A stretch of DNA of 34,897 bases. Origin: an uncultured Candidatus Saccharibacteria bacterium (GTDB taxonomy: Bacteria; Patescibacteriota; Minisyncoccia; UBA6257; Colwellbacteraceae). The position numbers and the translations under genes are program-made. The stretch covers positions 6,926 through 41,822 of the forward strand of contig CAYGDC010000001.1 in assembly GCA_964348605.1 (NCBI GenBank), written 5' to 3'. Below, piece by piece: positions 1 to 14,970 of this stretch (positions within the stretch are counted from its first letter, which is position 1; each line of letters starts with the position of its first letter). The notes under the pieces were generated by a model. That model ran no database searches. It was not told the DNA's origin and was given only the letters and a program-made list of their open reading frames with translations.

Positions 1-330
1 TAGCTCCCATGCTTCTCATGGCTCTCATGGCTCTCATAGCTCTCATAGCTCTCATAGCTCTCATAGCTCTCATAGCTCCCATAGCTCTCATAGCTCCCAT
101 GCTTCTCATGGCTCTCATGGCTCTCATAGCTCTCATAGCTCTCATAGCTCTCATAGCTCTCATAGCTCCCATAGCTCTCATAGCTCCCATGCTTCTCATG
201 GCTCTCATGGCTCTCATAGCTCTCATAGCTCTCATGGCTCTCATGGCTCTCATAGCTCCCACGGCTCCCATGGCTCTCATAGCTCCCACGGCTCCCATGG
301 CTCCCATGCCTCTCATAGCTCTCATGGCTC
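1..330. repeat. Tandem repeat with a 9-bp unit (consensus GCTCTCATA) arranged in a 90-bp higher-order unit. Copies start at 1, 91 and 181; the first two are identical and the third diverges after ~232. The array runs off the left window edge.
   Basis: Direct reading shows the same 90-nt string at 1-90 and 91-180. Unit variants are GCTCTCATG, GCTCCCATA, GCTCCCATG, GCTCCCACG, CTTCTCATG and CCTCTCATA. By eye the array is clearly more GC-rich than the following 14 kb. Confidence 0.95.
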
Positions 331-338
331 TTGTATAG
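9..338 (+). CDS. Candidate repeat-encoded hydrophobic low-complexity peptide, (A-L-I/M)n with Pro/Thr variants. The frame stays open to nt 3, so the real 5' end may lie outside the window. Coding status and strand are unresolved.
   Basis: The ORF is in the track, stops with TAG at 336-338, and lies on the same strand 47 nt upstream of the first rSAM gene. Two minus-strand frames are also open across the array (see findings), and Leu is encoded by CTC, which is rare elsewhere in the island. Confidence 0.3.
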   Translation: MLLMALMALIALIALIALIALIAPIALIAPMLLMALMALIALIALIALIALIAPIALIAPMLLMALMALIALIALMALMALIAPTAPMALIAPTAPMAPMPLIALMALV

Positions 339-385
339 TTTGTTGTGTTATCACATTTTGATATATTGTATTTACAATCAAATCC

Positions 386-2170
386 GTGTTTTTACGATAC
401 ATAGCGAATAAAATCTATTTAGAAGCTACAGACTCTATTAAAGAGGAATTTTTGCATCCAGAAATATTTTCAATTAAAAGACACATAAATCTTAGAGAGG
501 AGCACGCCTCAGTGCCGCTAGTTTTATTACTAACAAATAAATGTAATGCAATATGTACTTATTGTTATGTCAACGCAAATAAAACAAAAAAAATAATGAG
601 TTTTAAGTTAGCTAAAAAAGTCATTGATGCTGCTTTAATTAAAAATTCAAAACTAGATATATATTTCTTTGGTGGAGGAGAACCGACTATAGCGTTTGCT
701 TTAATGAAAAAAATTCAAGTATATACTAGTTCTTTCAAAAACAAACAAATAAATTTATTTTTAATCTCTAATGGTTTTTTTAATAAATCTGTAGCTAAAT
801 GGATAGCCAGTAATATAAAACATATTTCAATTTCTTGTGATGGTCCTCCATATATTCAAAATAAAAATAGGCCACTTATAGGGAAGCAAGACAGCAGCTC
901 TATTCTAGAAGAAAATCTTAATTTTTTATTACAAAAGGGAGCATCGGTGGTCCTCAGAGTAACTATCACTATGAACTCTTCTAAAAAACAAAAAGAAATT
1001 ATAGAATATGCTTTCCGATTAGGAATTAAAAAACTTTTGTTTGCACCTTTTAGAACAACTAATAAAAGCAGAAAAAACAAAGTTAAAGCAGTTAATTATT
1101 TCAAATTTGCCCAAGATTTTTTAAAAGCTAATGAGCTAGCTGATATTTTTGGATCCAAAATTATTAGCGACTTTTTTCCCATAGAGCCCAAAGATTCAAT
1201 GTGCGGCTTTGAGTCTCCTAATATAGCTGTTTCTTATTCTGGTCATGTAACTACTTGTTGGGAATCAAGCATTAGTTATACCGATAAACGCGATGAGTTT
1301 GTTTATGGCCGAATAGGGGATAATGGTGAAATTCGAAAAAACCCTCGATCTTGGGATAAAATTACTAAAAGAACACCAGATAATATAGATGAATGCCGCT
1401 CCTGTTTTTTAAAACGGAGTTGTGCTGGCGGTTGCGCCGCTACACATTTTCAAGCAACTGGAGACATAATGAAATTAGACAAAAATCGATGTGATGCCTC
1501 AAGATGGCTTGTCAAACAATATATTCTTTGTCTTGCTAGGCAACAAAACATAAATATTAAACCGTTTTTCGAACAGAATCAAAACAAAACATATTTTATT
1601 ACTTATTTTAACCGCTTTAGGGTGGGGAGAAAAAATATTATGGAGTTTAATCCGTTTATTGAAATAAGTAAGTCTAATTTAGATGATTTATCTCTCCTTA
1701 CAAAATTAATAGTTAAATATCGAGACAAAAAAGGATATAGCCCTATTTTATTTTTTTTAAATTTTATTTTTTCGCCAGATAATTTAAACATTAACACAGG
1801 ACATAAAATTATAACTTTTCTAAAAACTTTATCAGATCATAAAATACATTTTATTATAACAGCCCCATTGCCGAGCTGTATTTTTTCTACAGAAGACCTG
1901 TCTTTCATAATTACAAATTACAAATCTCCCGAAACTCTTATTACTTCTTTATCCTTTTTTCGCATAATAAATAATTTTTATTATTTTAATAACATTAATT
2001 CTAAAATTAAATATTCTGCCCTTGTAAAAAGGGAGATATTATTTAAAAGAGCTTTAGAAATTAAGCCTTTTCAAATTTATAACAAATGTTGTAAATGTCC
2101 ACTATTTTTACAAAAAAGTTGCGGAGGAGTATTTAATAAAATAAATATAAATATTGAAAAAAAATATTAA
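386..2170 (+). CDS. Radical SAM/SPASM-domain enzyme (594 aa) with a ~170-aa Cys-containing C-terminal extension
   Basis: CNAICTYC (CxxxCxxC, aa 53-60, nt 542-565), FFGGGEPT, and a canonical SPASM motif CRSCFLKRSCAGGC (aa 337-350). The C-terminal extension carries PLPSC and CCKCx7CGG. There is no ATG before the rSAM motif. GTG at 386 is the track start; TTG at 452, preceded by AAGAGGA, is an alternative. Confidence 0.85.
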   Translation: MFLRYIANKIYLEATDSIKEEFLHPEIFSIKRHINLREEHASVPLVLLLTNKCNAICTYCYVNANKTKKIMSFKLAKKVIDAALIKNSKLDIYFFGGGEPTIAFALMKKIQVYTSSFKNKQINLFLISNGFFNKSVAKWIASNIKHISISCDGPPYIQNKNRPLIGKQDSSSILEENLNFLLQKGASVVLRVTITMNSSKKQKEIIEYAFRLGIKKLLFAPFRTTNKSRKNKVKAVNYFKFAQDFLKANELADIFGSKIISDFFPIEPKDSMCGFESPNIAVSYSGHVTTCWESSISYTDKRDEFVYGRIGDNGEIRKNPRSWDKITKRTPDNIDECRSCFLKRSCAGGCAATHFQATGDIMKLDKNRCDASRWLVKQYILCLARQQNINIKPFFEQNQNKTYFITYFNRFRVGRKNIMEFNPFIEISKSNLDDLSLLTKLIVKYRDKKGYSPILFFLNFIFSPDNLNINTGHKIITFLKTLSDHKIHFIITAPLPSCIFSTEDLSFIITNYKSPETLITSLSFFRIINNFYYFNNINSKIKYSALVKREILFKRALEIKPFQIYNKCCKCPLFLQKSCGGVFNKININIEKKY

Positions 2171-3730: not shown

Positions 3731-4645
3731 ATGACGCGACTAGATTTAAAGGTGGGATTTCAGTGCAATAATTATTGTATTTTTTGTGTGCAGGGAGACA
3801 AAAGGTACAAGCACCCAGATAGAAATCTAAAAGAAATTAAGCTAATCTTACAGCGCGGCAGCAAAGAATTAAGGCGTAATGTAGTTTTTACTGGAGGAGA
3901 AGCGACTTTGAGAAAAAATATTCTATTAAAAGCAGTGGCCTACGCTAAAAAAATAGGATATCAAACCATTCAAATCCAAAGCAATGGAAGAATGTTCGCT
4001 TATATTGATTATTGTAAAGAGCTTATCATGGCTGGAGCGAATGAGTTTAGTCCAGCGTTACACGGCTCTACTCCTGATATTCATGACGAACTAACTCAAG
4101 TCCCTGGTAGTTTTAAACAAACTACGGAAGGCATCAAAAACCTTAAACTACTCAATCAATATGTGTTAACTAATTCAGTTATTACTAAAAAAAATTATAA
4201 AGACTTACCTAAATTATCAGAGTTATTAGTTCAATTAAGGGTTAATCAATTTCAACTAGCATTTATTCATATTAATCAAATTATTGCTAGTGATCCTTAT
4301 AAAATAAATGATATAGTGCCAAAAGTAAGTAAAGTAATGCCCTATGTTAAGAAAGCGCTTGATGTTGGGGTTATAGCAGGTGTTTCTTGCATGACTGAGG
4401 CAATTCCCTATTGCCTAATGTATGGTTATGAGGACTATATTGCTGAAAAAATTATACCAGAAGCGCATGTTTTTGATGCAGAGATAGATATTATAGACTA
4501 TACTCAATACAGACGAAATCAAGGGAAAATTAAATCTCCTAATTGCCTAAGGTGTTATTACTATCAAGTCTGCGAAGGTCCGTGGAAAGAGTATCCAGAG
4601 ATTTTTGGATGGTCAGAGTTTAAATCAGTAATTAATAAAAAATGA
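3731..4645 (+). CDS. Radical SAM enzyme, paralog family A, member A1 (304 aa)
   Basis: CNNYCIFC (nt 3764-3787), FTGGEATLR, SNGRMFAY, HDELTQVPGSFKQTTEGIKN, and C-terminal IPYC...CLRCx5CEG. It closely resembles the internal rSAM domain of the 1151-aa fusion. Confidence 0.85.
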   Translation: MTRLDLKVGFQCNNYCIFCVQGDKRYKHPDRNLKEIKLILQRGSKELRRNVVFTGGEATLRKNILLKAVAYAKKIGYQTIQIQSNGRMFAYIDYCKELIMAGANEFSPALHGSTPDIHDELTQVPGSFKQTTEGIKNLKLLNQYVLTNSVITKKNYKDLPKLSELLVQLRVNQFQLAFIHINQIIASDPYKINDIVPKVSKVMPYVKKALDVGVIAGVSCMTEAIPYCLMYGYEDYIAEKIIPEAHVFDAEIDIIDYTQYRRNQGKIKSPNCLRCYYYQVCEGPWKEYPEIFGWSEFKSVINKK

Positions 4646-5637
4646 TCAATTTAAAAAATAAAAAAGCTGTTTTTAAAAAAATTAACACAATAACTAAATT
4701 ATTTAATTTATCTGCTTATGAGTTATTAGCTGTTATTTACAATTTAAAACCAGCAATGGCTGAAGCTAATACCGGTGTTTATGACTCATCGTCTTCTGAG
4801 AAGCTAGATCAACTTGGAAGAATATGTTCAGAGCTAGGCCTTAAAATGGCCTTCTCACAAAAAAAATATATCATTAATAGCCCACGAGGAATTTTTGAAG
4901 AAGTAGAACTGAATAGCCCAGAAGACGGTAATTTAGTTATTGGGATATCTAAAGATATACAAACATCATTAAGTGCTGTGGCTCATTATCGATGGAAGAT
5001 GAAAGATAGTATTTATGGCAGGAGCTTTGGCAAGCTTATGGGCTATCCTGACTGTTGCTTAGATTTTGGAGACTATTTATGCAAGGGTCACGGTGATAGC
5101 AATTCTAATAATTTAGGATTCCGTAATCCAGCCGTGGAGTCACTTAAAAGATCAAAAAAAGTAGCTTGGCAATTAAATATCTTTGTCGCATCAGCTTTGC
5201 CCCACTATCCTTGTCATTTAAATTGCAACAAAAGCAAAGATTATGTTAATGGTCTTTTCGAAATTCTAAAAATAGCTGCGCCAGAAATATACCTAAGGCA
5301 CACAATGATGCTTAAAAATGATATTAGTCTTTATTGGAGTTGCGCTGATAAGGTTGTTTTTCATGGTCATTTTATAAAAAAAGGAAATAGTTTTGCAGAT
5401 ACTGAAGCCCAATATAATAGCGCAGACTTCCATATTAATTCTTCTACATTTTATCAAGCTAACAGCGATAGTTATTTAAATCAGCTAGAAGTTATCAAGC
5501 AAGCAATAAAAGAGGGGGATAAAATCATAACTACGCCAAAATATTTTGAAATTCGGCATAGTAAAACTGTTTTATTAAAAATCAATAAAAGCCATGAGCT
5601 TATTCCAGTTTTACTTAAAAGTGATAATGAAAAATAG
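4642..5637 (+). CDS. Cys-motif protein of unknown function, family B, member B1 (331 aa)
   Basis: Motifs GYPDCC (aa 134-139) and HYPCHLNC (aa 188-195) are shared with the ORF at 7473-8432. Its ATGA start overlaps the A1 stop. I cannot place it in a named family from memory. Confidence 0.7.
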   Translation: MINLKNKKAVFKKINTITKLFNLSAYELLAVIYNLKPAMAEANTGVYDSSSSEKLDQLGRICSELGLKMAFSQKKYIINSPRGIFEEVELNSPEDGNLVIGISKDIQTSLSAVAHYRWKMKDSIYGRSFGKLMGYPDCCLDFGDYLCKGHGDSNSNNLGFRNPAVESLKRSKKVAWQLNIFVASALPHYPCHLNCNKSKDYVNGLFEILKIAAPEIYLRHTMMLKNDISLYWSCADKVVFHGHFIKKGNSFADTEAQYNSADFHINSSTFYQANSDSYLNQLEVIKQAIKEGDKIITTPKYFEIRHSKTVLLKINKSHELIPVLLKSDNEK

Positions 5638-6574
5638 CAATCAAAAACAACTCATAGCAGTAACAGGATTCACATGTAACAATAATTGTGTTTTATGTTC
5701 ACTAAGGCCTCAGGCCCTTATTCATAATAATAAAAGTACGCAGGAAATCGAAGTTATGTTGGCATCTGCTGCCAAAGAAGGCTTATCAGCAGTAGAGTTC
5801 ACAGGTGGTGAGCCTACTTTAAGAAAAGACTTACTTCATCTTATTTGTTACGCAAAAAATATAGGGTTTCGAAATATTGCGATTGGGACTAATGGTCGGC
5901 TTTTAAGTTATAAAGTTTTTTTAAACAATTTGATTAGCGCCGGATTAAATAAAATTACCCTGACCCTTTTTTCCCATAAGGAACTTATTCACGATTCAAT
6001 AACGCGAACTCCTGGATCATTTAAGCAAACAGTAACCGCTATCAATAATATTATTCAAGAGCCCAGTATTCAATTAAGCGTCAATACAACAGTTTGTCAA
6101 TTGAATTATGCATTACTTAATGAAACTGGGATATTTTTATATAAAGCTGGAGTTAAGCATTGGGGGGTCTTAGACCTTATTCCTTTTGGCAATGCTGATA
6201 AACTTTATATAAGTTTGGTAGTTAAGCTAGATGAGTTATATATTGCGCTTAATAAACTTGAAAATATAGTAGGCTATTTTCAATCAGTATCATTTTTTGA
6301 CTTCTCTCACTGTTTGTTTAATAAAAAAATAAGGAGTCATCTAAATATCAGATTTTTTGATGCGCAAGAAAGAGTGCATACTTTTAAACAAATAGGGTAT
6401 CGTCCTGCAAGATTTAGCGTGAAAAAAAAAGACATTTATAGCGATGTTCATAAGCGTCATATTGCAATATGCGAAAATTGCCATTATAACAAAAATTGTG
6501 CAGGTTTTTGGCAAAACTATCTTCATTTATATGGCGAATCATTTAAAGCTCAGGTAATAAAAAAAGCTCTCTAA
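5627..6574 (+). CDS. Radical SAM enzyme, paralog family A, member A2
   Basis: CNNNCVLC (nt 5675-5698), FTGGEPTLRKD, TNGRLLSY, HDSITRTPGSFKQT, and C-terminal CENCx5CAG. The track start is 5594. I prefer the ATG at 5627 (MKNSNQ...), which overlaps the stop of B1. Confidence 0.8.
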   Translation: MKNSNQKQLIAVTGFTCNNNCVLCSLRPQALIHNNKSTQEIEVMLASAAKEGLSAVEFTGGEPTLRKDLLHLICYAKNIGFRNIAIGTNGRLLSYKVFLNNLISAGLNKITLTLFSHKELIHDSITRTPGSFKQTVTAINNIIQEPSIQLSVNTTVCQLNYALLNETGIFLYKAGVKHWGVLDLIPFGNADKLYISLVVKLDELYIALNKLENIVGYFQSVSFFDFSHCLFNKKIRSHLNIRFFDAQERVHTFKQIGYRPARFSVKKKDIYSDVHKRHIAICENCHYNKNCAGFWQNYLHLYGESFKAQVIKKAL

Positions 6575-6578
6575 AAAT

Positions 6579-7433
6579 ATGACAACTAAAACAATTAGTC
6601 CTTATATATATATAGGATATCATTGTAATAATAACTGTATTTTTTGCTCTGAGGCTGATGGATATCTCGAGGCATTAAAAATAAAAACCACAGATCAAGT
6701 TAAAAAAGAAATTATTGCAGCTAGGCAGCAATACAATTTTATTAATTTTATGGGCAGAGAGCCCACTCTTAGAAATGATTTTATAGACATTATTAAATTT
6801 GCTCAACAACAACATTTTGAACAGATCGGTTTTACTACCAATGGCAGAATGTTGGCATACCCAGAATTTACTCAAAGGATTTTACGCACCGGCATCAATC
6901 AAGTTGCTATTTCTTTAATTGGGAATAATCACATTATTCACGATAAACAAACTCAGGTTAAGGGTAGTTTTATGCAAACAATTCATGGTATTAAAAATGT
7001 GATTAAATTTAAAGACCCTGATACCAGCTTATTAATTAACATACCACTAAATAAATTAAATTATCTTTCGCTCAAGCCTTCTCTTGATTTATTAGTAAAA
7101 TTAGGAGTTAGAGAGATTAATATTCTTTTTGTTTTTCCTTTAAGTGAGCGCTCGCAGAATAAAAATATTATAATGTCGATGAGTAAGCTAGGAGCGCATG
7201 TCTTTAAGGTCATTAAGCCTTATTTGCAAAATCCAAATTTAAAGATTCTTTTAGTAGAATTTTTGCCATGCTCTTTGCCTAAAGAAGCTAGGCAACTTTT
7301 TTTTCCTTGTTTGGAAAAAAATCCAGAGAAAATAAGAATTCCGTTATGCTCTCAATGTTCTTATAAAGGTAAGTGCGACGGAGTTTTAAAAAACTATATT
7401 GATTTATATGGAGATAGAGAATTTGTTCTTTAA
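6579..7433 (+). CDS. Radical SAM enzyme, paralog family A, member A3 (284 aa)
   Basis: CNNNCIFC (nt 6624-6647), MGREPTLRND, TNGRMLAY, HDKQTQVKGSFMQTIHGIKN, and C-terminal CSQCx5CDG. Confidence 0.85.
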   Translation: MTTKTISPYIYIGYHCNNNCIFCSEADGYLEALKIKTTDQVKKEIIAARQQYNFINFMGREPTLRNDFIDIIKFAQQQHFEQIGFTTNGRMLAYPEFTQRILRTGINQVAISLIGNNHIIHDKQTQVKGSFMQTIHGIKNVIKFKDPDTSLLINIPLNKLNYLSLKPSLDLLVKLGVREINILFVFPLSERSQNKNIIMSMSKLGAHVFKVIKPYLQNPNLKILLVEFLPCSLPKEARQLFFPCLEKNPEKIRIPLCSQCSYKGKCDGVLKNYIDLYGDREFVL

Positions 7434-7472: not shown

Positions 7473-8432
7473 ATGAAAATTAATAAAAATCTACATAAAG
7501 AAATAATTAATTATAATCTAGATTATATAGAGCTTCTTGCTCTTTTAAATAATATTAAGCCCTTAGTTTTTTGTACTATATGCCAAGCACAAAAAAATAA
7601 CTTAATAAAGCTAATGAAAAAACTTAATCTTTATTACAGATTTGTAACTGATCCGATAATTGAAGAAAAATCCGAAATGTCAAGTAGCGAAGGAGAATTT
7701 TTAATTATTTCTAAAGAGATCGAGAAAGTAAATAATTTTATTAATGTATATTTTGGCGATAATCATGAAAAAAAATTTACAAAAGTTGGAGAGCTTTTAG
7801 GCTACCCTAAGTGTTGTGCTTTTAAATATATAAATTATATTTTTAATGATGGGTCACCACAAAGATTAAGAAATTATTATTATCAGGCAACAAAAAAATC
7901 TCAAAAATTTCACTCTCTAATTAACCCCCTTTTTTCTTTTTATGGCAGGATAAGCTCAAATGAGTTTGTAAAACTTAGATCTTTTTCTGAAAAAAATAAG
8001 TCTCTCAACATACAAGAATTAATGTTGATTTCTCATGCCCCCTGTTCTTTTAATTGCATTCAGAGCATTGAATATGCAAAAAAAATCTATTCTGTTTTAA
8101 AAAGGGAAAATAAAATTAAGGCCAATAAAATTATTAAGATTCTATCAAATCCAGTTCTTTTTTTTGATACGTTTGAGTTTATTGTTTTTAATGGAAAAGC
8201 AAATAAAAAAGAAATTATTTATAACAATATTTGTCCTCCATTTTCGCTAGTTTCTGATAAAATAATAAAAAAAATTAAACAAGGAAATAGATTACTTGTT
8301 AATGATGTTAATATTCAAATATATATTGATAAAAAAAAGATATATACAATAAAAAAAGAAAGTGTGTCCGATGGGTTTATAATACCATTTTCAAAAAATT
8401 TAATAAAAGATTATGGCCTTACTCATGAATAA
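7473..8432 (+). CDS. Cys-motif protein of unknown function, family B, member B2 (319 aa)
   Basis: GYPKCC (aa 110-115) and HAPCSFNC (aa 188-195). The N-terminal ELLAxxxNxKP segment also resembles B1. Confidence 0.7.
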   Translation: MKINKNLHKEIINYNLDYIELLALLNNIKPLVFCTICQAQKNNLIKLMKKLNLYYRFVTDPIIEEKSEMSSSEGEFLIISKEIEKVNNFINVYFGDNHEKKFTKVGELLGYPKCCAFKYINYIFNDGSPQRLRNYYYQATKKSQKFHSLINPLFSFYGRISSNEFVKLRSFSEKNKSLNIQELMLISHAPCSFNCIQSIEYAKKIYSVLKRENKIKANKIIKILSNPVLFFDTFEFIVFNGKANKKEIIYNNICPPFSLVSDKIIKKIKQGNRLLVNDVNIQIYIDKKKIYTIKKESVSDGFIIPFSKNLIKDYGLTHE

Positions 8433-11400
8433 AAAATATTTTTATCTAAATATGCAAGATAAAGATTTAGAAGAAAGGATTTCGATACATAAAAAATTTT
8501 TAGACTTACATCTTGGCAATCGATTTATGGTCGATATACCAATATGTGTAAATCCACCTAAAGATTTTAATGCCGAATCTATTAAGGATTTTTGGCAAAA
8601 TTTTGTCTCTGCATTTCCCCATCGCACTGACAGTAAAATATTAAATTTTTATATTCATATCCCTTATTGTCTAAATAAGTGCCATTATTGTTTTTATGGA
8701 TCTGAGGCATTAAATAATAAGAAAGACTTAGATCGATATATTGCTGTTTTAATAAAATATTTTCAATATTTTGAGAAGACTTTTAATAAAATAACTTTTG
8801 CAAATTTATATATAGGTGGTGGGACACCTAATATATTAGATGAAAAACAATTAAAGACTTTATTAGCTGAGTTATTTAAGCGTTTTAAATTTGACAAGGA
8901 TGGAGAGAAGACATTTGAAGGCGATCCCAGGTGTTCTTCTTTAAAAAAGCTTAAGTTATTAAAAAAATACGGCTTTAATCGCATTAGCTTTGGCGTGCAA
9001 TCTTTTGATAAAAAAGTATTAAAATATAATAATAGAGATGAACAAATTGATGGCAAGGTAGTAAAACGCGCTGTTGATGATGTTAAAAAAGCCGGCATCT
9101 CCCACATTAATTTAGATATGATAGTGGGTCTTTATGGCGAAGAAGAAAATTCCCTTATTACAAGTTTCCAACAAGCCATTCAGTTAAAGCCCTATTCTAT
9201 ATCTGTATATCCCATGCAAGCAACTGATAAATATCTAAAAATGTTTTTTGATTCTAATAAAACAAAATTTGATGAATATCGAGCAAAAATTATTAATTCG
9301 ACAATAAGCAAGATATTAGAAATTGCTGAAGAGAATAATTATAAGTGCCCCACTTATTCAGAATATATTTTTCCAATGAGTAATGCCTCTTCTTTTAGTT
9401 TAATTAATCAAGCTATACGCCCGCTAAGCTCAACATACAATGTAGATAGCCCTGATCAAAATGTTTCTTGTTTTGGATTGGGGATTCATAGTATTTCTAA
9501 AATTAATGGCAGAGAATTTTCTTATCAAATGACAGAGCCGCTAACGACACATCCAGTGAACTATATTTATAAGGGAATTGCCAATGATAAAAAGCATCAA
9601 ATAGCTGAATATCTTGTGAGGGGATTTGCTTCCAAAAAATTTATTTCTAGAGCAGATATTAGAAAAGCTATCGGCGCTGATGTTATTGATTATTTCCAAG
9701 ATGTTCTTACAAAGCTAAAGGCAATTAAAATAATTAGCATTAGGGGAGATAAAGTATATTTTGCCCCTAAAACAGAGGATGAAAGAAAAAAAAATATATT
9801 ATTTTTTTATGATATTGATGAAATTAAAGCGCGCATGCCAAAAGAAGAAATAGAGCCTATTCAGCATGATAATAAAATAAAAAAAACCGTTATTATCGCT
9901 GGTTATGCTTGTAATAATAATTGCATTTTTTGTATACATGGAGACAAGCGTAGTCAGATTGTAGATAAAACTAATCTGCAAATTAAAAAAGAAATAAATG
10001 AGGCACGCAATCGAGGCAGTACTTATTTAGAAATTATTGGCGGAGAAGCGTCAACAAGGCTGGATATACTAGATTTAATAAAGTTTGCCAAAAAAATAGG
10101 ATTTAGCACCATTATGATGGCTACTAATGGTCGAATGTATTCGTATGAAGAGTTTACCAGAAAGGCTCTCCAGGCTGGCCTAAATAGCCTAGTTTTTTCT
10201 ATTCATGGCCACAATAGCGAGCTTCACGATGCCCTTACTCAGGCTCCTGGTAGTTTCCAGCAACTCAAACAGGGGCTTCAAAATGCACAAAAAATAGCAA
10301 AAGATTTAAATCTAGATATAAGCTTGGGAGCTAATGTTTGCATTGTAAAACAAAATTATAAATATTTGCCCAAGATTGGAAATTATATTAAAAAACTAGG
10401 GATTAATAACGCTGAATTTATTTTTATTGATCCCAATAATGGCGCAGGACTTAAGTCTTTTAATAAACTGGTTCCTAAAATTTCTGATGCTGCGCCATAT
10501 ATTCATAAGTGTTTAGAAATCGGTAAAAAAAATAAAATACCTCATTGGCACATTAGATATGTTCCTCTTTGTTATTTTCAAAATTATCTTGATCAAATAA
10601 GTGAATTACAGGAAATAAAATCATTTCACACTGAGCACATTGCGCCTGATTTTTATAATCCAAATGCCTCGGAGGGAAGACAAAATATTGGGCGAATAAA
10701 AACAGAAAAATGCCAAAAGTGTCAATTATTTAATAAATGCGAAGGCGTCTGGAAAGAATATTTTAGGCACTATGGTGATGCAGAACTAATGCCTATTATT
10801 GATAATAATTCTAATCACCAAAATGCCCCTATTGTTCTTCTTAGAATCCTTCCTGCCACATTTGATTTATATATAAACAATATAGATCTTCTTTGCCAAA
10901 GAATGAAGAATGATTTTAACATGCCTGTAAATCTACTATTTATAGTTTCTATGGAAGATATACTGGGAGAATTTAGAGACAAAAAGAAAAAGATGGCAGT
11001 AAAAAAAATAAAAAAAATAGTTACTAAATTAGTAAAGAAAAATTTAGATTTTAGCATTAGTCCGCTTCCTCCGTGTTTATTTAATGTTCCTTGCCCAATA
11101 ATCATCAAAAAACGGATTTTGAAAAACAATCAAACCTATTCTTTGCCCCCAGCGTTCATAACTGATCCAGGCATAAAACATTCTATTGATAGCATTGAAA
11201 ACATGGACATCCAGCCCCAATGTTTATCATGCCAATTTAAATTGAAGAATAAATGTAGGGGGATATATATAAAGATAGGCGTACCATTAATTGATCAAAA
11301 AACTCAAGAATGGTTAAAAAACAAAATAGAATCATCAAAAAATATTACTTTACTTGATTGTGGTAGTGGCGCTAATCCGCCATTTTTAAAAACCTATAAA

Positions 11401-11868
11401 GAAATTGCCTTGGGAGGCGGCCTTATACATCTTTTAGAACCCGATACAGAAGAGGTGGTGGGACTAATGCCAGCAGTCTCTAGCTACCCTAGTATTATTA
11501 TTAATAATAATACTATTGAAGATGCTGATCTCCAGAGAAATTTTTTTGATATTGTAATATTAACTGGCAGCTATTCTCATATTCACAATTTACACAAAGC
11601 ATTGCTGAATATAGAGAGCGCTTTAAAACAAGGAGGTCTTTTATTAATAAAAGACGAAATGGACACAACGCAATCTGAGGGAAATAAAATTTTTGATAAA
11701 AGCCAAGCGTCAGCTTACGGATTTCATTACAGGAATCATAGCTTAAAGCGAGTTACTGCTGAGCTAGAAAAATATAACTTTAAAGTTATTGAAGGAGTAG
11801 AAGGAGAAGCAATGAAAAATAAACATCAGTTTTGGGCTATTAAAGCAGAAAAAAATAGCTATATATAG
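8413..11868 (+). CDS. Four-domain fusion protein (1151 aa): HemN/HemZ-like radical SAM + family-A radical SAM (A4) + Cys-containing X domain + class I SAM-dependent methyltransferase
   Basis: HemN-like: YIHIPYCLNKCHYC (nt 8668-8691), YIGGGTPN, NRISFGVQSF, NLDMIVGLYGE. A4: CNNNCIFC (nt 9910-9933), IIGGEASTR, TNGRMYSY, HDALTQAPGSFQQL, CQKCx5CEG. X domain (aa ~805-955): SPLPPC and CLSCx7CRG. Methyltransferase: LLDCGSGANP (aa ~979-988) and a later GGLLLIKD. An alternative ATG at 8425 overlaps the B2 stop. Confidence 0.85.
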   Translation: MALLMNKKYFYLNMQDKDLEERISIHKKFLDLHLGNRFMVDIPICVNPPKDFNAESIKDFWQNFVSAFPHRTDSKILNFYIHIPYCLNKCHYCFYGSEALNNKKDLDRYIAVLIKYFQYFEKTFNKITFANLYIGGGTPNILDEKQLKTLLAELFKRFKFDKDGEKTFEGDPRCSSLKKLKLLKKYGFNRISFGVQSFDKKVLKYNNRDEQIDGKVVKRAVDDVKKAGISHINLDMIVGLYGEEENSLITSFQQAIQLKPYSISVYPMQATDKYLKMFFDSNKTKFDEYRAKIINSTISKILEIAEENNYKCPTYSEYIFPMSNASSFSLINQAIRPLSSTYNVDSPDQNVSCFGLGIHSISKINGREFSYQMTEPLTTHPVNYIYKGIANDKKHQIAEYLVRGFASKKFISRADIRKAIGADVIDYFQDVLTKLKAIKIISIRGDKVYFAPKTEDERKKNILFFYDIDEIKARMPKEEIEPIQHDNKIKKTVIIAGYACNNNCIFCIHGDKRSQIVDKTNLQIKKEINEARNRGSTYLEIIGGEASTRLDILDLIKFAKKIGFSTIMMATNGRMYSYEEFTRKALQAGLNSLVFSIHGHNSELHDALTQAPGSFQQLKQGLQNAQKIAKDLNLDISLGANVCIVKQNYKYLPKIGNYIKKLGINNAEFIFIDPNNGAGLKSFNKLVPKISDAAPYIHKCLEIGKKNKIPHWHIRYVPLCYFQNYLDQISELQEIKSFHTEHIAPDFYNPNASEGRQNIGRIKTEKCQKCQLFNKCEGVWKEYFRHYGDAELMPIIDNNSNHQNAPIVLLRILPATFDLYINNIDLLCQRMKNDFNMPVNLLFIVSMEDILGEFRDKKKKMAVKKIKKIVTKLVKKNLDFSISPLPPCLFNVPCPIIIKKRILKNNQTYSLPPAFITDPGIKHSIDSIENMDIQPQCLSCQFKLKNKCRGIYIKIGVPLIDQKTQEWLKNKIESSKNITLLDCGSGANPPFLKTYKEIALGGGLIHLLEPDTEEVVGLMPAVSSYPSIIINNNTIEDADLQRNFFDIVILTGSYSHIHNLHKALLNIESALKQGGLLLIKDEMDTTQSEGNKIFDKSQASAYGFHYRNHSLKRVTAELEKYNFKVIEGVEGEAMKNKHQFWAIKAEKNSYI

Positions 11869-12630: not shown

Positions 12631-12852
12631 ATGCAAAAAACTTCTTTAGTTGATAAAAAACAATATGCTGTTATTTATCGTAGTATAGAGCACTTTGAGG
12701 TTCTTGGCTTTGTTACGGCTGATTCTATAGAGGATGCAAAAGACAAGGCTAAAAAAGAATTATTAGTAGAAGCTAAACACTACGTGGTAACAGAAGCAGA
12801 AATTGCTGAATTAAAAGATTTAAATAAAATATCTTTTGATATTTCCACTTAA
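12631..12852 (+). CDS. Small hypothetical protein (73 aa), acidic/Lys-rich with no Cys
   Basis: The ORF is in the track. It sits 5 nt upstream of rSAM A5 and has its own promoter-like element. No recognisable motif. Confidence 0.5.
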   Translation: MQKTSLVDKKQYAVIYRSIEHFEVLGFVTADSIEDAKDKAKKELLVEAKHYVVTEAEIAELKDLNKISFDIST

Positions 12853-12857
12853 ATAAA

Positions 12858-13805
12858 ATGGCAGATATTTGCGTTTGGAATCGATGCAATAATGGCTGTC
12901 TTATGTGTTCTAATCCACGCGAATTTAATAAATCAGTTCACAGTGCGACATATTCACTAGATGCCATTATAAACAGAGTTAAGAAAAATTATGACAACTT
13001 ACAAAAGAATCACCAAGTTATAGACTTAACTGGTGGTGAGCCAACTATTCATCAACATTTTTTTGAAATACTCGCCCTGCTAAAAAAACAACACCCAGAA
13101 AATAAAATAGCACTCAATACTAATGGTAGGATGTTTGCTTATTATGAGTTTACTAAAAAACATTTGCCCTATATTAATTTTATTAAAATAGCAGTACACG
13201 GCTTTAATCCACAATCACATGATATTATCACTGGAATTAAAGGAAGTTTTTATCAAACTGTTAAGGGAATTAAAAACATTTTAACGGTCAGAAAAAACAT
13301 TAAAAACGGTGCTTTTATCGAAGTTGAGATAAGAATCATTCTAACAAAATTAAATTATCAAAATTTAGAAGAAATACTTAGTTTTTTACATCAAAATTTT
13401 TCAGAAGTTAATAGAATTGTATTAATTTTTCCAGAATTTGAGGGAATTTGCCAGGAGAATTTTTCTCTAATTGGCATTACATATCAAGACTGTTCATTAT
13501 TTATTAAAACAGCTATTCAGAATTGGGCCCCAAATTTTAAAGATATACGGCTTTATCACTTTCCTTTATGCGTTCTACCATTTAAGTTGTGGCCATATAC
13601 TTGGAGAACACTAAGGGGCGACGAAGTTATTTTTTTAGAAAGATGTCAGGAATGTATTTATAAAAAATATTGTCTTGGCGTACACATAGACTATCCTAAA
13701 GTCATTGGAGACAGAGAGTTTCAGCCAATTATATCTTCTGTAGGAGAAATTATAGTAAATAAAGGTGATCAATTTATTTACCACCCAATTATTGCAGTAA
13801 AATAA
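12858..13805 (+). CDS. Radical SAM enzyme, paralog family A, member A5 (315 aa)
   Basis: CNNGCLMC (nt 12885-12908), LTGGEPTIH, TNGRMFAY, HDIITGIKGSFYQTVKGIKN, FPLC, and CQECx5CLG. Confidence 0.85.
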   Translation: MADICVWNRCNNGCLMCSNPREFNKSVHSATYSLDAIINRVKKNYDNLQKNHQVIDLTGGEPTIHQHFFEILALLKKQHPENKIALNTNGRMFAYYEFTKKHLPYINFIKIAVHGFNPQSHDIITGIKGSFYQTVKGIKNILTVRKNIKNGAFIEVEIRIILTKLNYQNLEEILSFLHQNFSEVNRIVLIFPEFEGICQENFSLIGITYQDCSLFIKTAIQNWAPNFKDIRLYHFPLCVLPFKLWPYTWRTLRGDEVIFLERCQECIYKKYCLGVHIDYPKVIGDREFQPIISSVGEIIVNKGDQFIYHPIIAVK

Positions 13806-13806
13806 G

Positions 13807-14970
13807 ATGGCAATATTGCAAATAATTAATTTTATTGACTTATTTTTTTTATTACCACTTTTTATTATTGGGATAATATCTTCATATACAGATATAAAAT
13901 ATAATAAAATATTTAACAGTCTTATTATTCTTGGCTTACTTTATGGCCTCTGGATAATTATTGCTTTATTGTTACAAAATATTTTTTTACTAGGTGAGGC
14001 AGAAAACTTTATTTATATAGGCAAAGTTTTTTTAAACTCCTTTTTAGCTTTATTAGTGGGCTATTTTCTTTGGTATCAAAAATATTGGTCAGCCGGAGAC
14101 GCTAAGCTATTTACTGTTTATGCCCTATTACTACCTTTAAAATTTTACGATAAAAGTTATTTTGACTACTTCCCTTCTTTTAATTTAATAATCAATTTAT
14201 TTTTCCCAGTCATCATTGTTTTAAGCTTTTATTCTCTTAAAGATTTTTTTTATTCTTTGTTCGAGCGACTTATTAAAAAAAATATATTTTTAAAGCAGGT
14301 GCCTATTAAAGAGCGTTATTTTAATGCTATAAAAGAGCTTAAAAAAATTGGCACTTTATTAATAAACTTTATTTTTTTTATTGTTATTATCCAAATAATA
14401 TTACTTAGTTTTAGAATAGTTATTGGCCAAACAGCAGGCTTGCATCCTTTTTTACTTTATCTAATTATCGTTTTTCTAATGCAAAAAATTAATAAGTGGA
14501 AAAATAAATTTAGATGGCTCACTCCTCTTATTTATAGCGTATCATTTATATATATCTTTTATTTAATTATTCAACTTGATTTTTCTGCTATTTTGGGGCT
14601 AGCGAGAATGGCCTTAATATTTTTAATATTTATTAATTTGGCTCGTCATTTTTTAGATCATTATATTGACAGAAAAGAGATAGGATCTCTTCCATTAAAA
14701 GATTTACGAAAAGGAGTATTAATTCATCAAGAAGATTTAAGCAAGCTCATAAGCTCCTTAAGCACAAAAGAAAAGGAAGCATTAAATTGGATTGGCGCTG
14801 AAGGCATAAGCGAGGAACAAATCTTGATTATTAAAAATAAATTTAAAACAAGCCTAAATAATGAAATAAGATTTTATAAAACATTTCCTTTCGCGCCCTA
14901 TATGTTATTAGCGACTATAATCTCTATATTAACTCAATCTTCATTTTTAGCTTGGATAGATATTATATAA
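13807..14970 (+). CDS. Polytopic membrane protein resembling an A24-family (prepilin/preflagellin peptidase-type) aspartic protease, with a large C-terminal extension
   Basis: SYTDIKYNKIFN (Asp29) and WSAGDAKLF (GxGD-like, Asp98, nt 14098-14100) sit ~70 aa apart in hydrophobic segments. The C-terminal FPFAPYMLLA resembles the conserved PFxP end of A24 peptidases. The start is 1 nt after the A5 stop. Confidence 0.55.
   Translation: MAILQIINFIDLFFLLPLFIIGIISSYTDIKYNKIFNSLIILGLLYGLWIIIALLLQNIFLLGEAENFIYIGKVFLNSFLALLVGYFLWYQKYWSAGDAKLFTVYALLLPLKFYDKSYFDYFPSFNLIINLFFPVIIVLSFYSLKDFFYSLFERLIKKNIFLKQVPIKERYFNAIKELKKIGTLLINFIFFIVIIQIILLSFRIVIGQTAGLHPFLLYLIIVFLMQKINKWKNKFRWLTPLIYSVSFIYIFYLIIQLDFSAILGLARMALIFLIFINLARHFLDHYIDRKEIGSLPLKDLRKGVLIHQEDLSKLISSLSTKEKEALNWIGAEGISEEQILIIKNKFKTSLNNEIRFYKTFPFAPYMLLATIISILTQSSFLAWIDII

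What the first reader, a model, noticed from the sequence alone, without database searches (positions are those of the whole stretch)
4642..5637. Paralogous Cys-motif proteins (GYPxCC ... HxPCxxNC) that partner the rSAM paralogs
Seen: B1 (4642-5637) and B2 (7473-8432) are both ~320-330 aa. Each is translationally coupled to the flanking rSAM genes through start/stop overlaps. They share G(K/E)LxGYP(D/K)CC and H(Y/A)PC(H/S)(L/F)NC at nearly identical positions (aa ~110-139 and 188-195), plus an N-terminal ELLAxxxNxKP segment. There is no Walker, Rossmann or rSAM motif. Inference: the CC + CxxxC (+His) set looks like a metal or Fe-S site or a catalytic Cys centre. The proteins could be accessory, scaffold or substrate-recognition partners of the adjacent rSAMs, or thiol-dependent enzymes. 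I could not assign them to a named family from memory.
Basis: partly seen in the sequence, partly recalled or inferred. Interest (0 to 1): 0.6.

Follow-up and report, generated by a model that had tools for sequence, protein, structure and literature searches.

The report
DUF483-type four-cysteine partners of radical-SAM enzymes
B1 and B2 are two old copies of a catalogued but unstudied protein family (DUF483) with an invariant four-cysteine, probably metal-binding, site; they accompany radical-SAM enzymes that most likely modify a His-Xaa-Ser repeat protein, and what they do is still unknown.

Summary
B1 (4642-5637) and B2 (7473-8432) are real paralogues (24% identity, E 3e-7). Both carry ELLAxxxNxKP, GxLxGYPxCC and HxPCxxNC, and neither has a radical-SAM, Walker or Rossmann motif. 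Three of the four junctions with radical-SAM (rSAM) genes overlap. A3/B2 has a 39-nt gap.

They belong to a divergent Patescibacteria branch of the DUF483 (PF04467) superfamily. A profile search found 1291 representative clusters. Among 142 distant relatives, P136, C138, C139 and C195 are 100% conserved. C191 is 96% conserved and is His in the rest. The "motif" His188 is often Tyr or Phe. The AlphaFold model is confident (pLDDT 92) and matches no solved structure.

Of 18 long relatives, 16 are natural fusions of an HxsC-like rSAM to this domain, involving at least six different rSAM orthogroups. In all CPR loci examined B lies among such rSAMs. The operon is an expanded His-Xaa-Ser (HXS) system: HxsD, HxsB and HxsA lie just upstream.

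Best reading: a metal or Fe-S accessory subunit of HxsC-like rSAMs. The exact role is not resolved. Stand-alone DPANN copies show the family is not only an rSAM partner.

This scan has already noted the same DUF483-rSAM pairing on other DNA (DPANN, Elusimicrobia, Myxococcota, phages).

The parts
4642..5637 (+). B1: 331-aa protein of the DUF483 superfamily. It has an N-terminal alpha/beta domain (1-105), a helical core (106-226) and a C-terminal beta domain (228-325). The core carries GYPDCC (134-139) and PCHLNC (190-195).
   Evidence: ORF. PF04467 scores 19.7 bits, below the 25-bit cut-off. 64 homologues. AF2 model with pLDDT 92.3 and pTM 0.89. Invariant C138, C139, C191 and C195. dN/dS 0.11.
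7473..8432 (+). B2: 319-aa diverged paralogue of B1. It has the same motifs (GYPKCC 110-115, PCSFNC 190-195) and a roughly 28-aa insert between them.
   Evidence: BLASTP against B1 gives E 3e-7. PF04467 16.9 bits. 228 bits against the B1-family HMM. Orthologue in L015 is only 55% identical, dN/dS 0.30.
3731..4645 (+). A1: HxsC/HxsC4-like radical SAM enzyme (304 aa). Its stop codon overlaps the B1 start (ATGA).
   Evidence: PF04055 70 bits. NF038332 136 bits and TIGR03977 103 bits, both below cut-off. Junction read.
5594..6574 (+). A2: HxsC-like radical SAM enzyme (326 aa, or 315 aa from the ATG at 5627). Its start overlaps the end of B1.
   Evidence: Its orthogroup lies downstream of B in L001 and L018.
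6579..7433 (+). A3: the shortest HxsC-like radical SAM enzyme (284 aa), 39 nt upstream of B2. Members of its orthogroup are the rSAMs most often found next to a B gene.
   Evidence: In the tree, 8 of the 13 members of this orthogroup directly flank a B gene.
8413..11868 (+). 1151-aa fusion of a HemN-like rSAM, an HxsC4-like rSAM, a Cys-rich module and a SAM methyltransferase. Its start overlaps the end of B2.
12858..13805 (+). A5: the rSAM in the window closest to canonical HxsC.
   Evidence: TIGR03977 180 bits, cut-off 267.9.
2..361 (+). 3' end of the HxsA4-type His-Xaa-Ser repeat gene, the presumed substrate. It contains 36 in-register H-x-S triplets and ends in GSCIVCCVITF.
   Evidence: The gene starts at G000:C1:6449, upstream of the window. 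The L001 orthologue hits NF038313 at 88.9 bits, above the 55-bit cut-off.
386..2170 (+). Second rSAM/SPASM maturase (PapB/HxsB-like) with a C-terminal Cys-rich extension.
13807..14970 (+). A24-like polytopic membrane protein that closes the cluster. It is conserved in both types of CPR cluster.
   Evidence: PF01478 26.3 bits. A homologous 382-405-aa gene is present in L001 and L012.

Best explanation
B1 and B2 are diverged paralogues of a Patescibacteria branch of the DUF483 superfamily. Each is a three-domain protein of about 320-330 aa. The helical core holds four invariant cysteines (Cys-Cys after GYP, and PCx3C about 50 residues later). I read these as one metal centre. By precedent a [4Fe-4S] or other Fe-S cluster is most likely, and structural Zn is the alternative.

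The B proteins are not radical SAM enzymes themselves. I propose that they act as accessory subunits of the HxsC-like radical SAM enzymes encoded around them. In this operon they work in trans; in many other organisms the same pairing exists as a single rSAM-DUF483 polypeptide.

The operon is an expanded His-Xaa-Ser system: HxsD, an HxsD-like protein, HxsB and HxsA4, followed by about eight rSAM cores. The substrate is most likely the HxsA4 repeat protein.

What is shown: family membership, conservation of the site, gene fusion and clustering, and co-occurrence with HxsA4.

What is inferred: metal binding, physical complex formation, and the role. I think the likeliest role is holding or positioning the repeat substrate, or relaying electrons, for the rSAM. 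That would be analogous to HxsD or RRE partners, but B is not homologous to HxsD.
For: Family:
- 29 of 30 close and 96 of 111 distant relatives hit PF04467, and intermediates score up to 57 bits.
- 1291 representative clusters at E<=1e-3.

Site:
- Among 142 distant representatives, P136, C138, C139 and C195 are 100% conserved, C191 is 96% with His as the only replacement, and K36 is 98%.
- Both motifs sit at helix N-termini of the confident AF2 core.

Partnership with rSAMs:
- 16 of 18 relatives of at least 500 aa have an N-terminal HxsC-like rSAM with CxxxCxxC (14 of these also the Cx2Cx5C motif). These rSAM parts best match at least six different A orthogroups, so fusion arose repeatedly.
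- L022, L034, L036 and L042 carry such fusions in sequenced loci.
- In every one of the 15 CPR loci examined, B lies inside an array of HxsC-like rSAMs.
- The same pairing occurs in a DPANN cluster (L043) and in Myxococcota.
- Three of four junctions in the window overlap.

Substrate link:
- HxS-repeat genes are present in the window, L001, L017, L018, L020, L022, L026, L028 and L042.
- HxsA4 scores above its cut-off in 4 of 5 B-bearing genomes whose loci showed no repeat gene within 10 kb.
- In 300 sampled genomes of the phylum, B was found in 0 and HxsA4 above cut-off in 0.
- True HxsD, HxsD_rel and HxsB lie just upstream in the same contig.

Precedent: in E. coli HXS, HxsC needs and binds a small partner, HxsD (PMC13128918).
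Against: - No metal has been shown. I could not read model coordinates, so the four Cys are not shown to be close together in space.
- AF2 of a natural fusion (L022) gave pTM 0.51 with a low-confidence linker and Cx2Cx5C region. No confident docking of B on the rSAM was obtained.
- B is not tied to one rSAM orthogroup, and there are 1-2 B genes for 7-10 rSAMs per locus.
- Many DPANN archaeal family members stand alone. No ORF within about 6 kb matched the HxsC-like HMM or carried a CxxxCxxC motif; the neighbours were RNase Z, tRNA methyltransferases, small methyltransferases or nucleotidyltransferases. The fold therefore has a function that does not require an adjacent rSAM.
- Several other polar residues are well conserved (K36, E27, S72, K75, S103, K104, Y258). 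That fits an active or binding pocket as well as it fits a scaffold.
Confidence: 0.55

Rival explanations
1. B is an autonomous enzyme, not just an rSAM accessory. It would be an Fe-S-dependent or thiol-dependent catalyst performing its own step on the HxsA4 repeats or on another molecule, for example a redox, sulfur-transfer, hydrolytic or SAM-related step. It would have been recruited into, and sometimes fused to, rSAM pathways.
For: - Stand-alone copies in DPANN archaea lack a nearby rSAM, and in two Woesearchaeota loci they share a recurring neighbourhood of a small methyltransferase and an NTP_transf_2 protein. Others lie next to RNase Z and a Trm14-like methyltransferase.
- Conserved polar residues outside the Cys site (K36 98%, E27, S72, K75, S103, K104, Y258) suggest a pocket.
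- The protein has three domains and 330 aa, which is large for a pure adaptor.
- InterPro reportedly lists DUF483-methyltransferase fusions (preprint 10.1101/2024.08.14.607894).
- A cysteine desulfurase gene sits in one related cluster, L042.
Against: - No similarity to any enzyme family by Pfam, NCBIfam, PHROGs, PADLOC, PDB sequence search or Foldseek.
- The only invariant side chains are the four Cys plus Lys36.
- The candidate catalytic His188 is replaced by Tyr or Phe in about 18% of members.
- Repeated fusion specifically to HxsC-like rSAMs.
Confidence: 0.25
2. B is a dedicated electron-transfer or Fe-S cluster-delivery protein. It would reduce or load the many [4Fe-4S] clusters of the 8-10 rSAM enzymes in these minimal-genome organisms.
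For: - One or two B genes serve many rSAMs per locus, with no fixed partner orthogroup.
- The tandem-Cys plus Cx3C pattern has Fe-S precedents in APS reductase (CC...CxxC), NuoB and the HdrB CCG motif (from my own knowledge, not tested here).
- Cysteine desulfurase in L042.
Against: - Fusion in cis to a single rSAM fits a stoichiometric partner better than a shared carrier.
- The large N- and C-terminal domains are unnecessary for a ferredoxin-like role.
- Stand-alone DPANN copies without an rSAM nearby.
Confidence: 0.12
3. B is itself a protein substrate of the neighbouring rSAM. One of its cysteines or another residue would be modified or activated, as in sulfatase or glycyl-radical enzyme activation.
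For: Activating rSAMs are typically encoded next to, or fused with, their target proteins. B has an invariant Cys-Cys in a fixed context.
Against: - A dedicated repeat-protein substrate (HxsA4) co-occurs with B.
- Cys191-to-His replacement points to a ligand rather than a modification site.
- There is no glycyl-radical or sulfatase-type motif.
Confidence: 0.05

Closest known systems
Pfam PF04467 (DUF483), an uncharacterised family first defined on archaeal proteins (it matches in Methanocaldococcus jannaschii)
   Same: Same core. The G[YF]PxCC and (H)xPCx3C motifs align to profile positions about 18-100. 96 of 111 distant relatives and 29 of 30 close ones match it, and intermediates score well above the cut-off.
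   Different: B1 (19.7 bits) and B2 (16.9 bits) fall below the 25-bit gathering score. The Pfam model covers only about 120 residues of the helical core. The CPR proteins add conserved N-terminal (ELLAxxxNxKP, K36) and C-terminal beta domains. The family has no known function, so membership names the proteins but does not explain them.
HxsD, the small partner of HxsC in the HXS antiphage system (TIGR03976 / PF27806; PMC13128918)
   Same: A non-rSAM protein encoded with HxsC-type rSAMs and a His-Xaa-Ser repeat substrate. HxsD physically binds HxsC and is required for HxsA maturation. This is the kind of role proposed here for B.
   Different: No homology: hhalign probability 0.1 and no TIGR03976 or NF038315 hit for B1 or B2. 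HxsD is about 90-180 aa and has no Cys motif. This genome also has a genuine HxsD and an HxsD-like gene, so B is an addition, not a replacement.
rSAM + DUF483 + unknown-protein module of Thermus phages Cumys/phiMa (bioRxiv 10.1101/2024.08.14.607894)
   Same: A DUF483 protein genetically linked to an rSAM. The authors also note DUF483-rSAM and DUF483-methyltransferase fusions in InterPro.
   Different: It is a phage module of three genes, proposed (without a test) to modify DNA. No HxS repeat protein is mentioned. I found no relative of B1 in viral contigs with the CPR-specific patterns.
RiPP recognition elements (PqqD-like RRE) and SPASM/twitch auxiliary-cluster domains of peptide-modifying rSAMs
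   Same: Accessory modules that occur both fused to and separate from rSAM maturases. They either bind the peptide (RRE) or carry extra Fe-S clusters (SPASM/twitch).
   Different: No Pfam or NCBIfam hit to either. The predicted fold has no PDB match. The Cys pattern CC...PCx3C is unlike the SPASM Cx2Cx5Cx3C pattern, and the partner rSAMs keep their own C-terminal Cx2Cx5C.
Tandem-cysteine [4Fe-4S] sites (APS reductase CC-X~80-CXXC; complex I NuoB/Nqo6 cluster N2; HdrB CCG motif), recalled from knowledge and not tested
   Same: Two adjacent Cys plus two Cys from a distant short motif ligate one cluster. This shows that a CC...Cx3C pattern is compatible with Fe-S binding.
   Different: There is no sequence or fold relationship. 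It is only a chemical precedent.

Membership tests
Pfam DUF483 (PF04467) | Whole-protein score at or above the curated gathering threshold (25 bits) | tested here: not met
   B1 19.7 bits (E 8.9e-4) and B2 16.9 bits (E 6.6e-3). The own-genome scan gave 20.7 bits.
Pfam DUF483 (PF04467) | Superfamily link through intermediate sequences and shared signature motifs (G[YF]PxCC ... PCx3C) | tested here: met
   A profile of B1 homologues retrieves 1291 clusters. 96 of 111 of them hit PF04467, with scores up to 57 bits. Motifs are present in 204 and 192 of 212 sequences.
Radical SAM superfamily (PF04055) | CxxxCxxC cluster motif and a match to the partial TIM-barrel core profile | tested here: not met
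   No PF04055 hit and no CxxxCxxC in B1 or B2.
HxsD / HxsD-like (TIGR03976, NF038315, PF27806) | Profile match to the HxsD models | tested here: not met
   No NCBIfam hit for B1; B2 gave only a chance-level CymR match at E 0.047. hhalign of A1 against an HxsD alignment gave probability 0.1. The real HxsD (60.3 bits, cut-off 50) and HxsD_rel (61.9 bits, cut-off 41) are separate genes upstream.
HXS (His-Xaa-Ser) system, for the locus as a whole | HxsA repeat protein, HxsB rSAM/SPASM and HxsD all present | tested here: met
   HxS repeats at window 2-361 and L011 6449-7286. HxsB scores 481 bits, cut-off 370. HxsD scores 60.3 bits, cut-off 50. The L001 orthologue of HxsA hits HxsA4 at 88.9 bits, cut-off 55.
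HXS (His-Xaa-Ser) system, for the locus as a whole | HxsC at equivalog level (TIGR03977, at least 267.9 bits) or HxsC4 (NF038332, at least 500 bits) | tested here: not met
   The best TIGR03977 score is 180 bits (12858-13805). HxsC4 scores are 116-157 bits for A1-A4. These are HxsC-like, not equivalogs.
RRE (PqqD-like) or SPASM/twitch accessory domains | Profile match (PF05402 / TIGR04085 / PF13186) | tested here: not met
   No such hit at E<=0.1 in Pfam or NCBIfam. Foldseek found no PDB match with E<=1e-3.
Metalloprotein with a Cys4 (Fe-S or Zn) site | Bound metal; four ligands close together in space | not testable with these tools
   Only indirect evidence: invariance of the four Cys, Cys191-to-His in 5 representatives, and motifs at helix N-termini in the AF2 model.

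The most novel reading that the evidence does not exclude
DUF483 is a previously unrecognised class of Fe-S accessory module with a fold absent from the PDB. HxsC-type radical SAM enzymes would need it, in trans or fused, to modify His-Xaa-Ser (and perhaps other His-triplet) repeat proteins. On this reading, the CPR operon with about eight to ten rSAM cores plus two such modules makes a heavily cross-linked repeat polymer by chemistry not yet described.
Probability: 0.3. Interest if true: 0.7.

Novelty: new variant of a known kind. Interest (0 to 1): 0.5.

Why it matters
Radical SAM peptide and protein maturases are usually understood through their accessory modules: RRE for substrate recognition and SPASM/twitch for extra clusters. 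Here a third, unstudied module recurs beside or fused to one clade of rSAMs (HxsC-like). It has more than 1000 sequence clusters and no solved structure. It occurs in CPR bacteria, DPANN archaea and Myxococcota, and a preprint reports it in phages.

The only studied HXS system (E. coli, 2026) is an antiphage defence whose chemistry is unresolved: a +8 Da change on SHRSS. Knowing what DUF483 contributes would help define that chemistry. It would also help explain why organisms with genomes as small as roughly 0.5 Mb (this assembly holds 0.45 Mb at 83% completeness) devote about 20 kb to it.

If the four-Cys site binds an Fe-S cluster, it would add a new tandem-Cys cluster-binding fold.

Tried and rejected
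1. Named-family searches gave nothing beyond sub-threshold DUF483. I tried Pfam, NCBIfam, PHROGs and PADLOC on B1 and B2, and PDB sequence searches with the single sequence and with the profile.

2. Fold search of the confident B1 model against the PDB and BFVD found no hit with E<=1e-3. The top hits (galectins, NAT) had TM 0.1-0.2 and are noise.

3. HxsD homology is rejected (hhalign probability 0.1).

4. A catalytic Cys-His dyad is disfavoured, because His188 is Tyr or Phe in about 18% of members.

5. One-to-one cognate pairing by gene order is rejected. The tree of 81 A-type rSAMs shows B next to different orthogroups in different genomes.

6. AF2 of a natural rSAM-B fusion (L022, 754 aa) was meant to test docking. 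It gave pTM 0.51 and low confidence for residues 244-325 and 395-412, so the result is inconclusive. The MSA for the rSAM half was shallow, and a first alignment (A4) misplaced the rSAM rows and was discarded.

7. The viral contig scan with CPR-specific patterns found no relatives.

8. A random sample of the phylum (300 genomes) could not give a co-occurrence table, because B is too rare: 0 of 300. I used B-bearing genomes instead.

9. Literature: nothing turned up for PF04467. DUF483 is mentioned only in passing in one phage preprint.
Full report
**Observation**

The two ORFs are as described: 4642-5637 (B1, 331 aa) and 7473-8432 (B2, 319 aa). They are genuine but old paralogues. BLASTP gives 24% identity over 251 columns, E 3e-7.

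- ELLAVIYNLKP at residue 27 in B1 and ELLALLNNIKP at 20 in B2.
- GKLMGYPDCC at 130 in B1 and GELLGYPKCC at 106 in B2.
- HYPCHLNC in B1 and HAPCSFNC in B2, both at residue 188.

Neither protein has CxxxCxxC, Walker A or GxGxxG.

The junctions are as follows:
- A1/B1 is an ATGA overlap.
- B1/A2 overlaps by 11 or 44 nt.
- B2/fusion gene overlaps by 8 or 20 nt.
- A3/B2 is separated by 39 nt.

The claim of translational coupling therefore holds for three of four junctions.

B1 is under clear purifying selection against an 89%-identical orthologue (L015), with dN/dS 0.11. B2 has diverged much faster between the same two genomes: 55% identity, dN/dS about 0.30.

**What the proteins are**

Pfam gives only sub-threshold hits to DUF483 (PF04467): 19.7 and 16.9 bits against a cut-off of 25. 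NCBIfam, PHROGs, PADLOC and PDB sequence searches give nothing.

The DUF483 link is nevertheless solid:
- 29 of 30 close homologues hit it weakly.
- A profile of the B1 family retrieves 1291 representative clusters at E<=1e-3.
- 96 of 111 of the distant relatives hit PF04467, some at 46-57 bits.

The 64 close homologues are all unnamed proteins from Patescibacteria/CPR metagenomes.

An AlphaFold2 model built on the 30-sequence alignment is confident (pLDDT 92.3, pTM 0.89). It shows three parts:
- an N-terminal alpha/beta domain (1-105);
- a helical core (106-226) with both Cys motifs at helix N-termini;
- a C-terminal beta domain (228-325).

Foldseek finds no match with E<=1e-3 in the PDB or in BFVD. 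At this sensitivity the fold has no solved relative.

**The conserved site**

I aligned 142 distant representatives to the family HMM.
- P136, C138, C139 and C195 are 100% conserved.
- C191 is 96% conserved. The only alternative is His, in five sequences that keep the other three Cys.
- K36 is 98% conserved, and G134 and Y135 are at least 95%.

Four invariant Cys with a single Cys-to-His exchange is the signature of a metal-ligand set rather than of a catalytic Cys-His pair. From general knowledge, tandem Cys plus a distant short Cys motif ligate [4Fe-4S] clusters in APS reductase, NuoB and HdrB. An Fe-S cluster is therefore plausible, and structural Zn is the alternative. No tool here could show metal binding or give Cys-Cys distances.

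**Context**

The window begins inside a gene. Frame +2 of bases 2-361 reads 36 in-register His-Xaa-Ser triplets ending in GSCIVCCVITF.

The contig upstream (G000:C1:1-7400) carries four relevant genes:
- HxsD (TIGR03976, 60.3 bits, cut-off 50);
- an HxsD-like protein (NF038315, 61.9 bits, cut-off 41);
- HxsB (TIGR03978, 481 bits, cut-off 370);
- the start of this HxsA gene. Its orthologue in L001 matches HxsA4 (NF038313, 88.9 bits, cut-off 55).

Downstream of HxsA the order is:
- a second rSAM/SPASM enzyme;
- a CPBP protease;
- a further rSAM;
- A1-B1-A2-A3-B2;
- a 1151-aa fusion of a HemN-like rSAM, an HxsC4-like rSAM and a methyltransferase;
- a membrane protein;
- the most HxsC-like rSAM;
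- an A24-like membrane protein.

After that come housekeeping genes.

The locus is thus a greatly expanded HXS system. The canonical four-gene HXS system of E. coli was recently shown to be an antiphage defence. There HxsB and HxsC mature HxsA (a +8 Da change on SHRSS), and HxsC binds HxsD (PMC13128918). That paper places 99.7% of HXS systems in Pseudomonadota and does not describe DUF483 partners.

**Evidence that B works with the rSAMs**

1. Gene fusion. Of 18 B-family representatives of at least 500 aa, 16 have an N-terminal HxsC-like rSAM followed by the B domain; all 16 carry the CxxxCxxC motif and 14 also a C-terminal Cx2Cx5C. Their rSAM parts best match at least six different A orthogroups, so the fusion arose repeatedly. 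Fusions are also seen directly in loci L022, L034, L036 and L042.

2. Clustering. In all 15 CPR loci examined, B sits within an array of 5-10 HxsC-like rSAMs. Multidomain rSAM-DUF483 proteins occur in Myxococcota. A DPANN archaeon has a cluster with four HxsC-like rSAMs (plus one weaker rSAM match) and two B genes (L043).

3. No fixed partner. A tree of 81 A-type rSAMs resolves seven or eight orthogroups conserved across genomes. B is adjacent to different ones in different genomes. The short A3-type is the most frequent neighbour. There are 1-2 B genes for 7-10 rSAMs per locus.

4. Substrate co-occurrence.
   - HxS-repeat genes lie in the same loci in the window, L001, L017, L018, L020, L022, L026, L028 and L042.
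   - In the second CPR cluster type, no repeat gene was seen within 10 kb. Even so, 4 of 5 such genomes encode HxsA4 above the cut-off, at roughly 20-27 kb from B where both could be placed on one contig.
   - In 300 evenly sampled genomes of the phylum, B was found in none and HxsA4 above cut-off in none.

**Evidence that limits the partner reading**

B is not homologous to HxsD (hhalign probability 0.1).

Many DPANN family members are stand-alone, with no rSAM-like ORF detected within about 6 kb:
- next to RNase Z and a Trm14-like methyltransferase (L029);
- between an NTP_transf_2 protein and a small methyltransferase in two Woesearchaeota loci;
- in unrelated contexts.

DUF483 was found in only 8 of 70 genomes of the Nanohalarchaeota-containing phylum, so it is not a housekeeping gene there either.

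AF2 of a natural fusion (L022, 754 aa) folded both halves confidently. However, pTM was 0.51 and the linker and Cx2Cx5C region had low confidence, so it gives no confident docking geometry.

**Interpretation**

The best-supported reading is that B1 and B2 are metal-binding (probably Fe-S) accessory subunits of HxsC-like rSAM enzymes in an HxsA4 maturation pathway. They would do in trans what the natural fusions do in cis.

I cannot decide whether they hold the repeat substrate, relay electrons or catalyse a separate step. The main rival is an autonomous enzyme recruited to these pathways. The stand-alone archaeal copies and the conserved polar residues outside the Cys site support that rival.

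Two further readings are less likely:
- a shared electron or cluster donor for the many rSAMs;
- B as an rSAM protein substrate.

**Novelty**

The family is catalogued (DUF483) but uncharacterised. Its link to rSAMs has been mentioned once in passing, for Thermus phages, together with InterPro fusions (bioRxiv 10.1101/2024.08.14.607894). Nothing was found under PF04467.

The HXS system is known. An HXS-type operon with about eight rSAM cores and DUF483 partners has not been described in the papers I could search.

Earlier notes of this scan report the same DUF483-rSAM pairing in DPANN, Elusimicrobia, Myxococcota and phage loci. My fusion, clustering and DPANN results agree with them and were obtained independently here. 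Their claim about phage His-x-Asp fibres was not tested.

I therefore class this as a new variant of a known kind, of moderate interest.

Noticed in passing
window 2-361 (+); gene start at G000:C1:6449 (L011 6449-7286): The window opens inside an HxsA4-type gene. It has a leader with a hydrophobic segment, then dozens of His-Xaa-Ser triplets, and ends in GSCIVCCVITF. Part of the repeat region reads as N in the genome copy. HxsD, an HxsD-like 71-aa protein and HxsB lie directly upstream.
   Followed up: partly
window 12631-12852 (+): A 73-aa ORF (…YAVIYRSIEHFEVLGFV…EAKDKAKKEL…VTEAEIAEL…) directly precedes the HxsC-like rSAM at 12858-13805. It is conserved at the same position in L001 (17813-18013) and, in L042 (11958-12179), just before a shorter A-type rSAM. 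It may be a further small partner protein. It has no family hit.
   Followed up: partly
window 7473-8432 versus L015 3214-4167: Between the window and a close relative (L015), B2 is only 55% identical while B1 is 89% identical. One paralogue is evolving several-fold faster than the other.
   Followed up: partly
L042 13099-14346: A related HXS-type cluster carries a cysteine desulfurase (Aminotran_5) gene among the rSAMs. It also has a stand-alone B followed directly by an rSAM-B fusion, and an HxsA with a roughly 330-aa non-repeat C-terminal extension.
   Followed up: no
L012, L019, L021, L023-L026 (loci of B1 homologues): There is a second CPR cluster type. B and HxsC-like rSAMs sit next to pilin-like/PKD surface proteins and the A24-like membrane protein, and L012 (the one locus with Pfam annotation) also carries an rSAM-glycosyltransferase fusion, other glycosyltransferases and TsaD/Sua5-like genes. 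The HxsA4 gene lies 20 kb or more away rather than inside the cluster.
   Followed up: partly
L011 3353-3865 and 2581-3252; L001 2407-4317: Surface or pilin-like proteins upstream of the HXS genes share a C-terminal Cys-rich tail (…NICxLVxYT…CPxG…ALTxGxMLCC(R/K)VxNP). This is reminiscent of the CC-containing C-terminus of HxsA. They may be further substrates or cell-surface partners.
   Followed up: no
L015 (DBNY01000040.1): The record is titled 'Bacillales bacterium UBA660'. Yet it carries an 89%-identical, fully syntenic copy of this Patescibacteria operon. The contig is probably mis-binned or mislabelled.
   Followed up: no
L039 4418-7362 and L040 4509-8210: In two Woesearchaeota contigs the stand-alone DUF483 gene has the same neighbours: an NTP_transf_2/Pol-beta-like protein of 267-268 aa (gene calls) and a small DOT1/Methyltransf_31-like methyltransferase. 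This hints at a different, rSAM-independent role for that clade.
   Followed up: no
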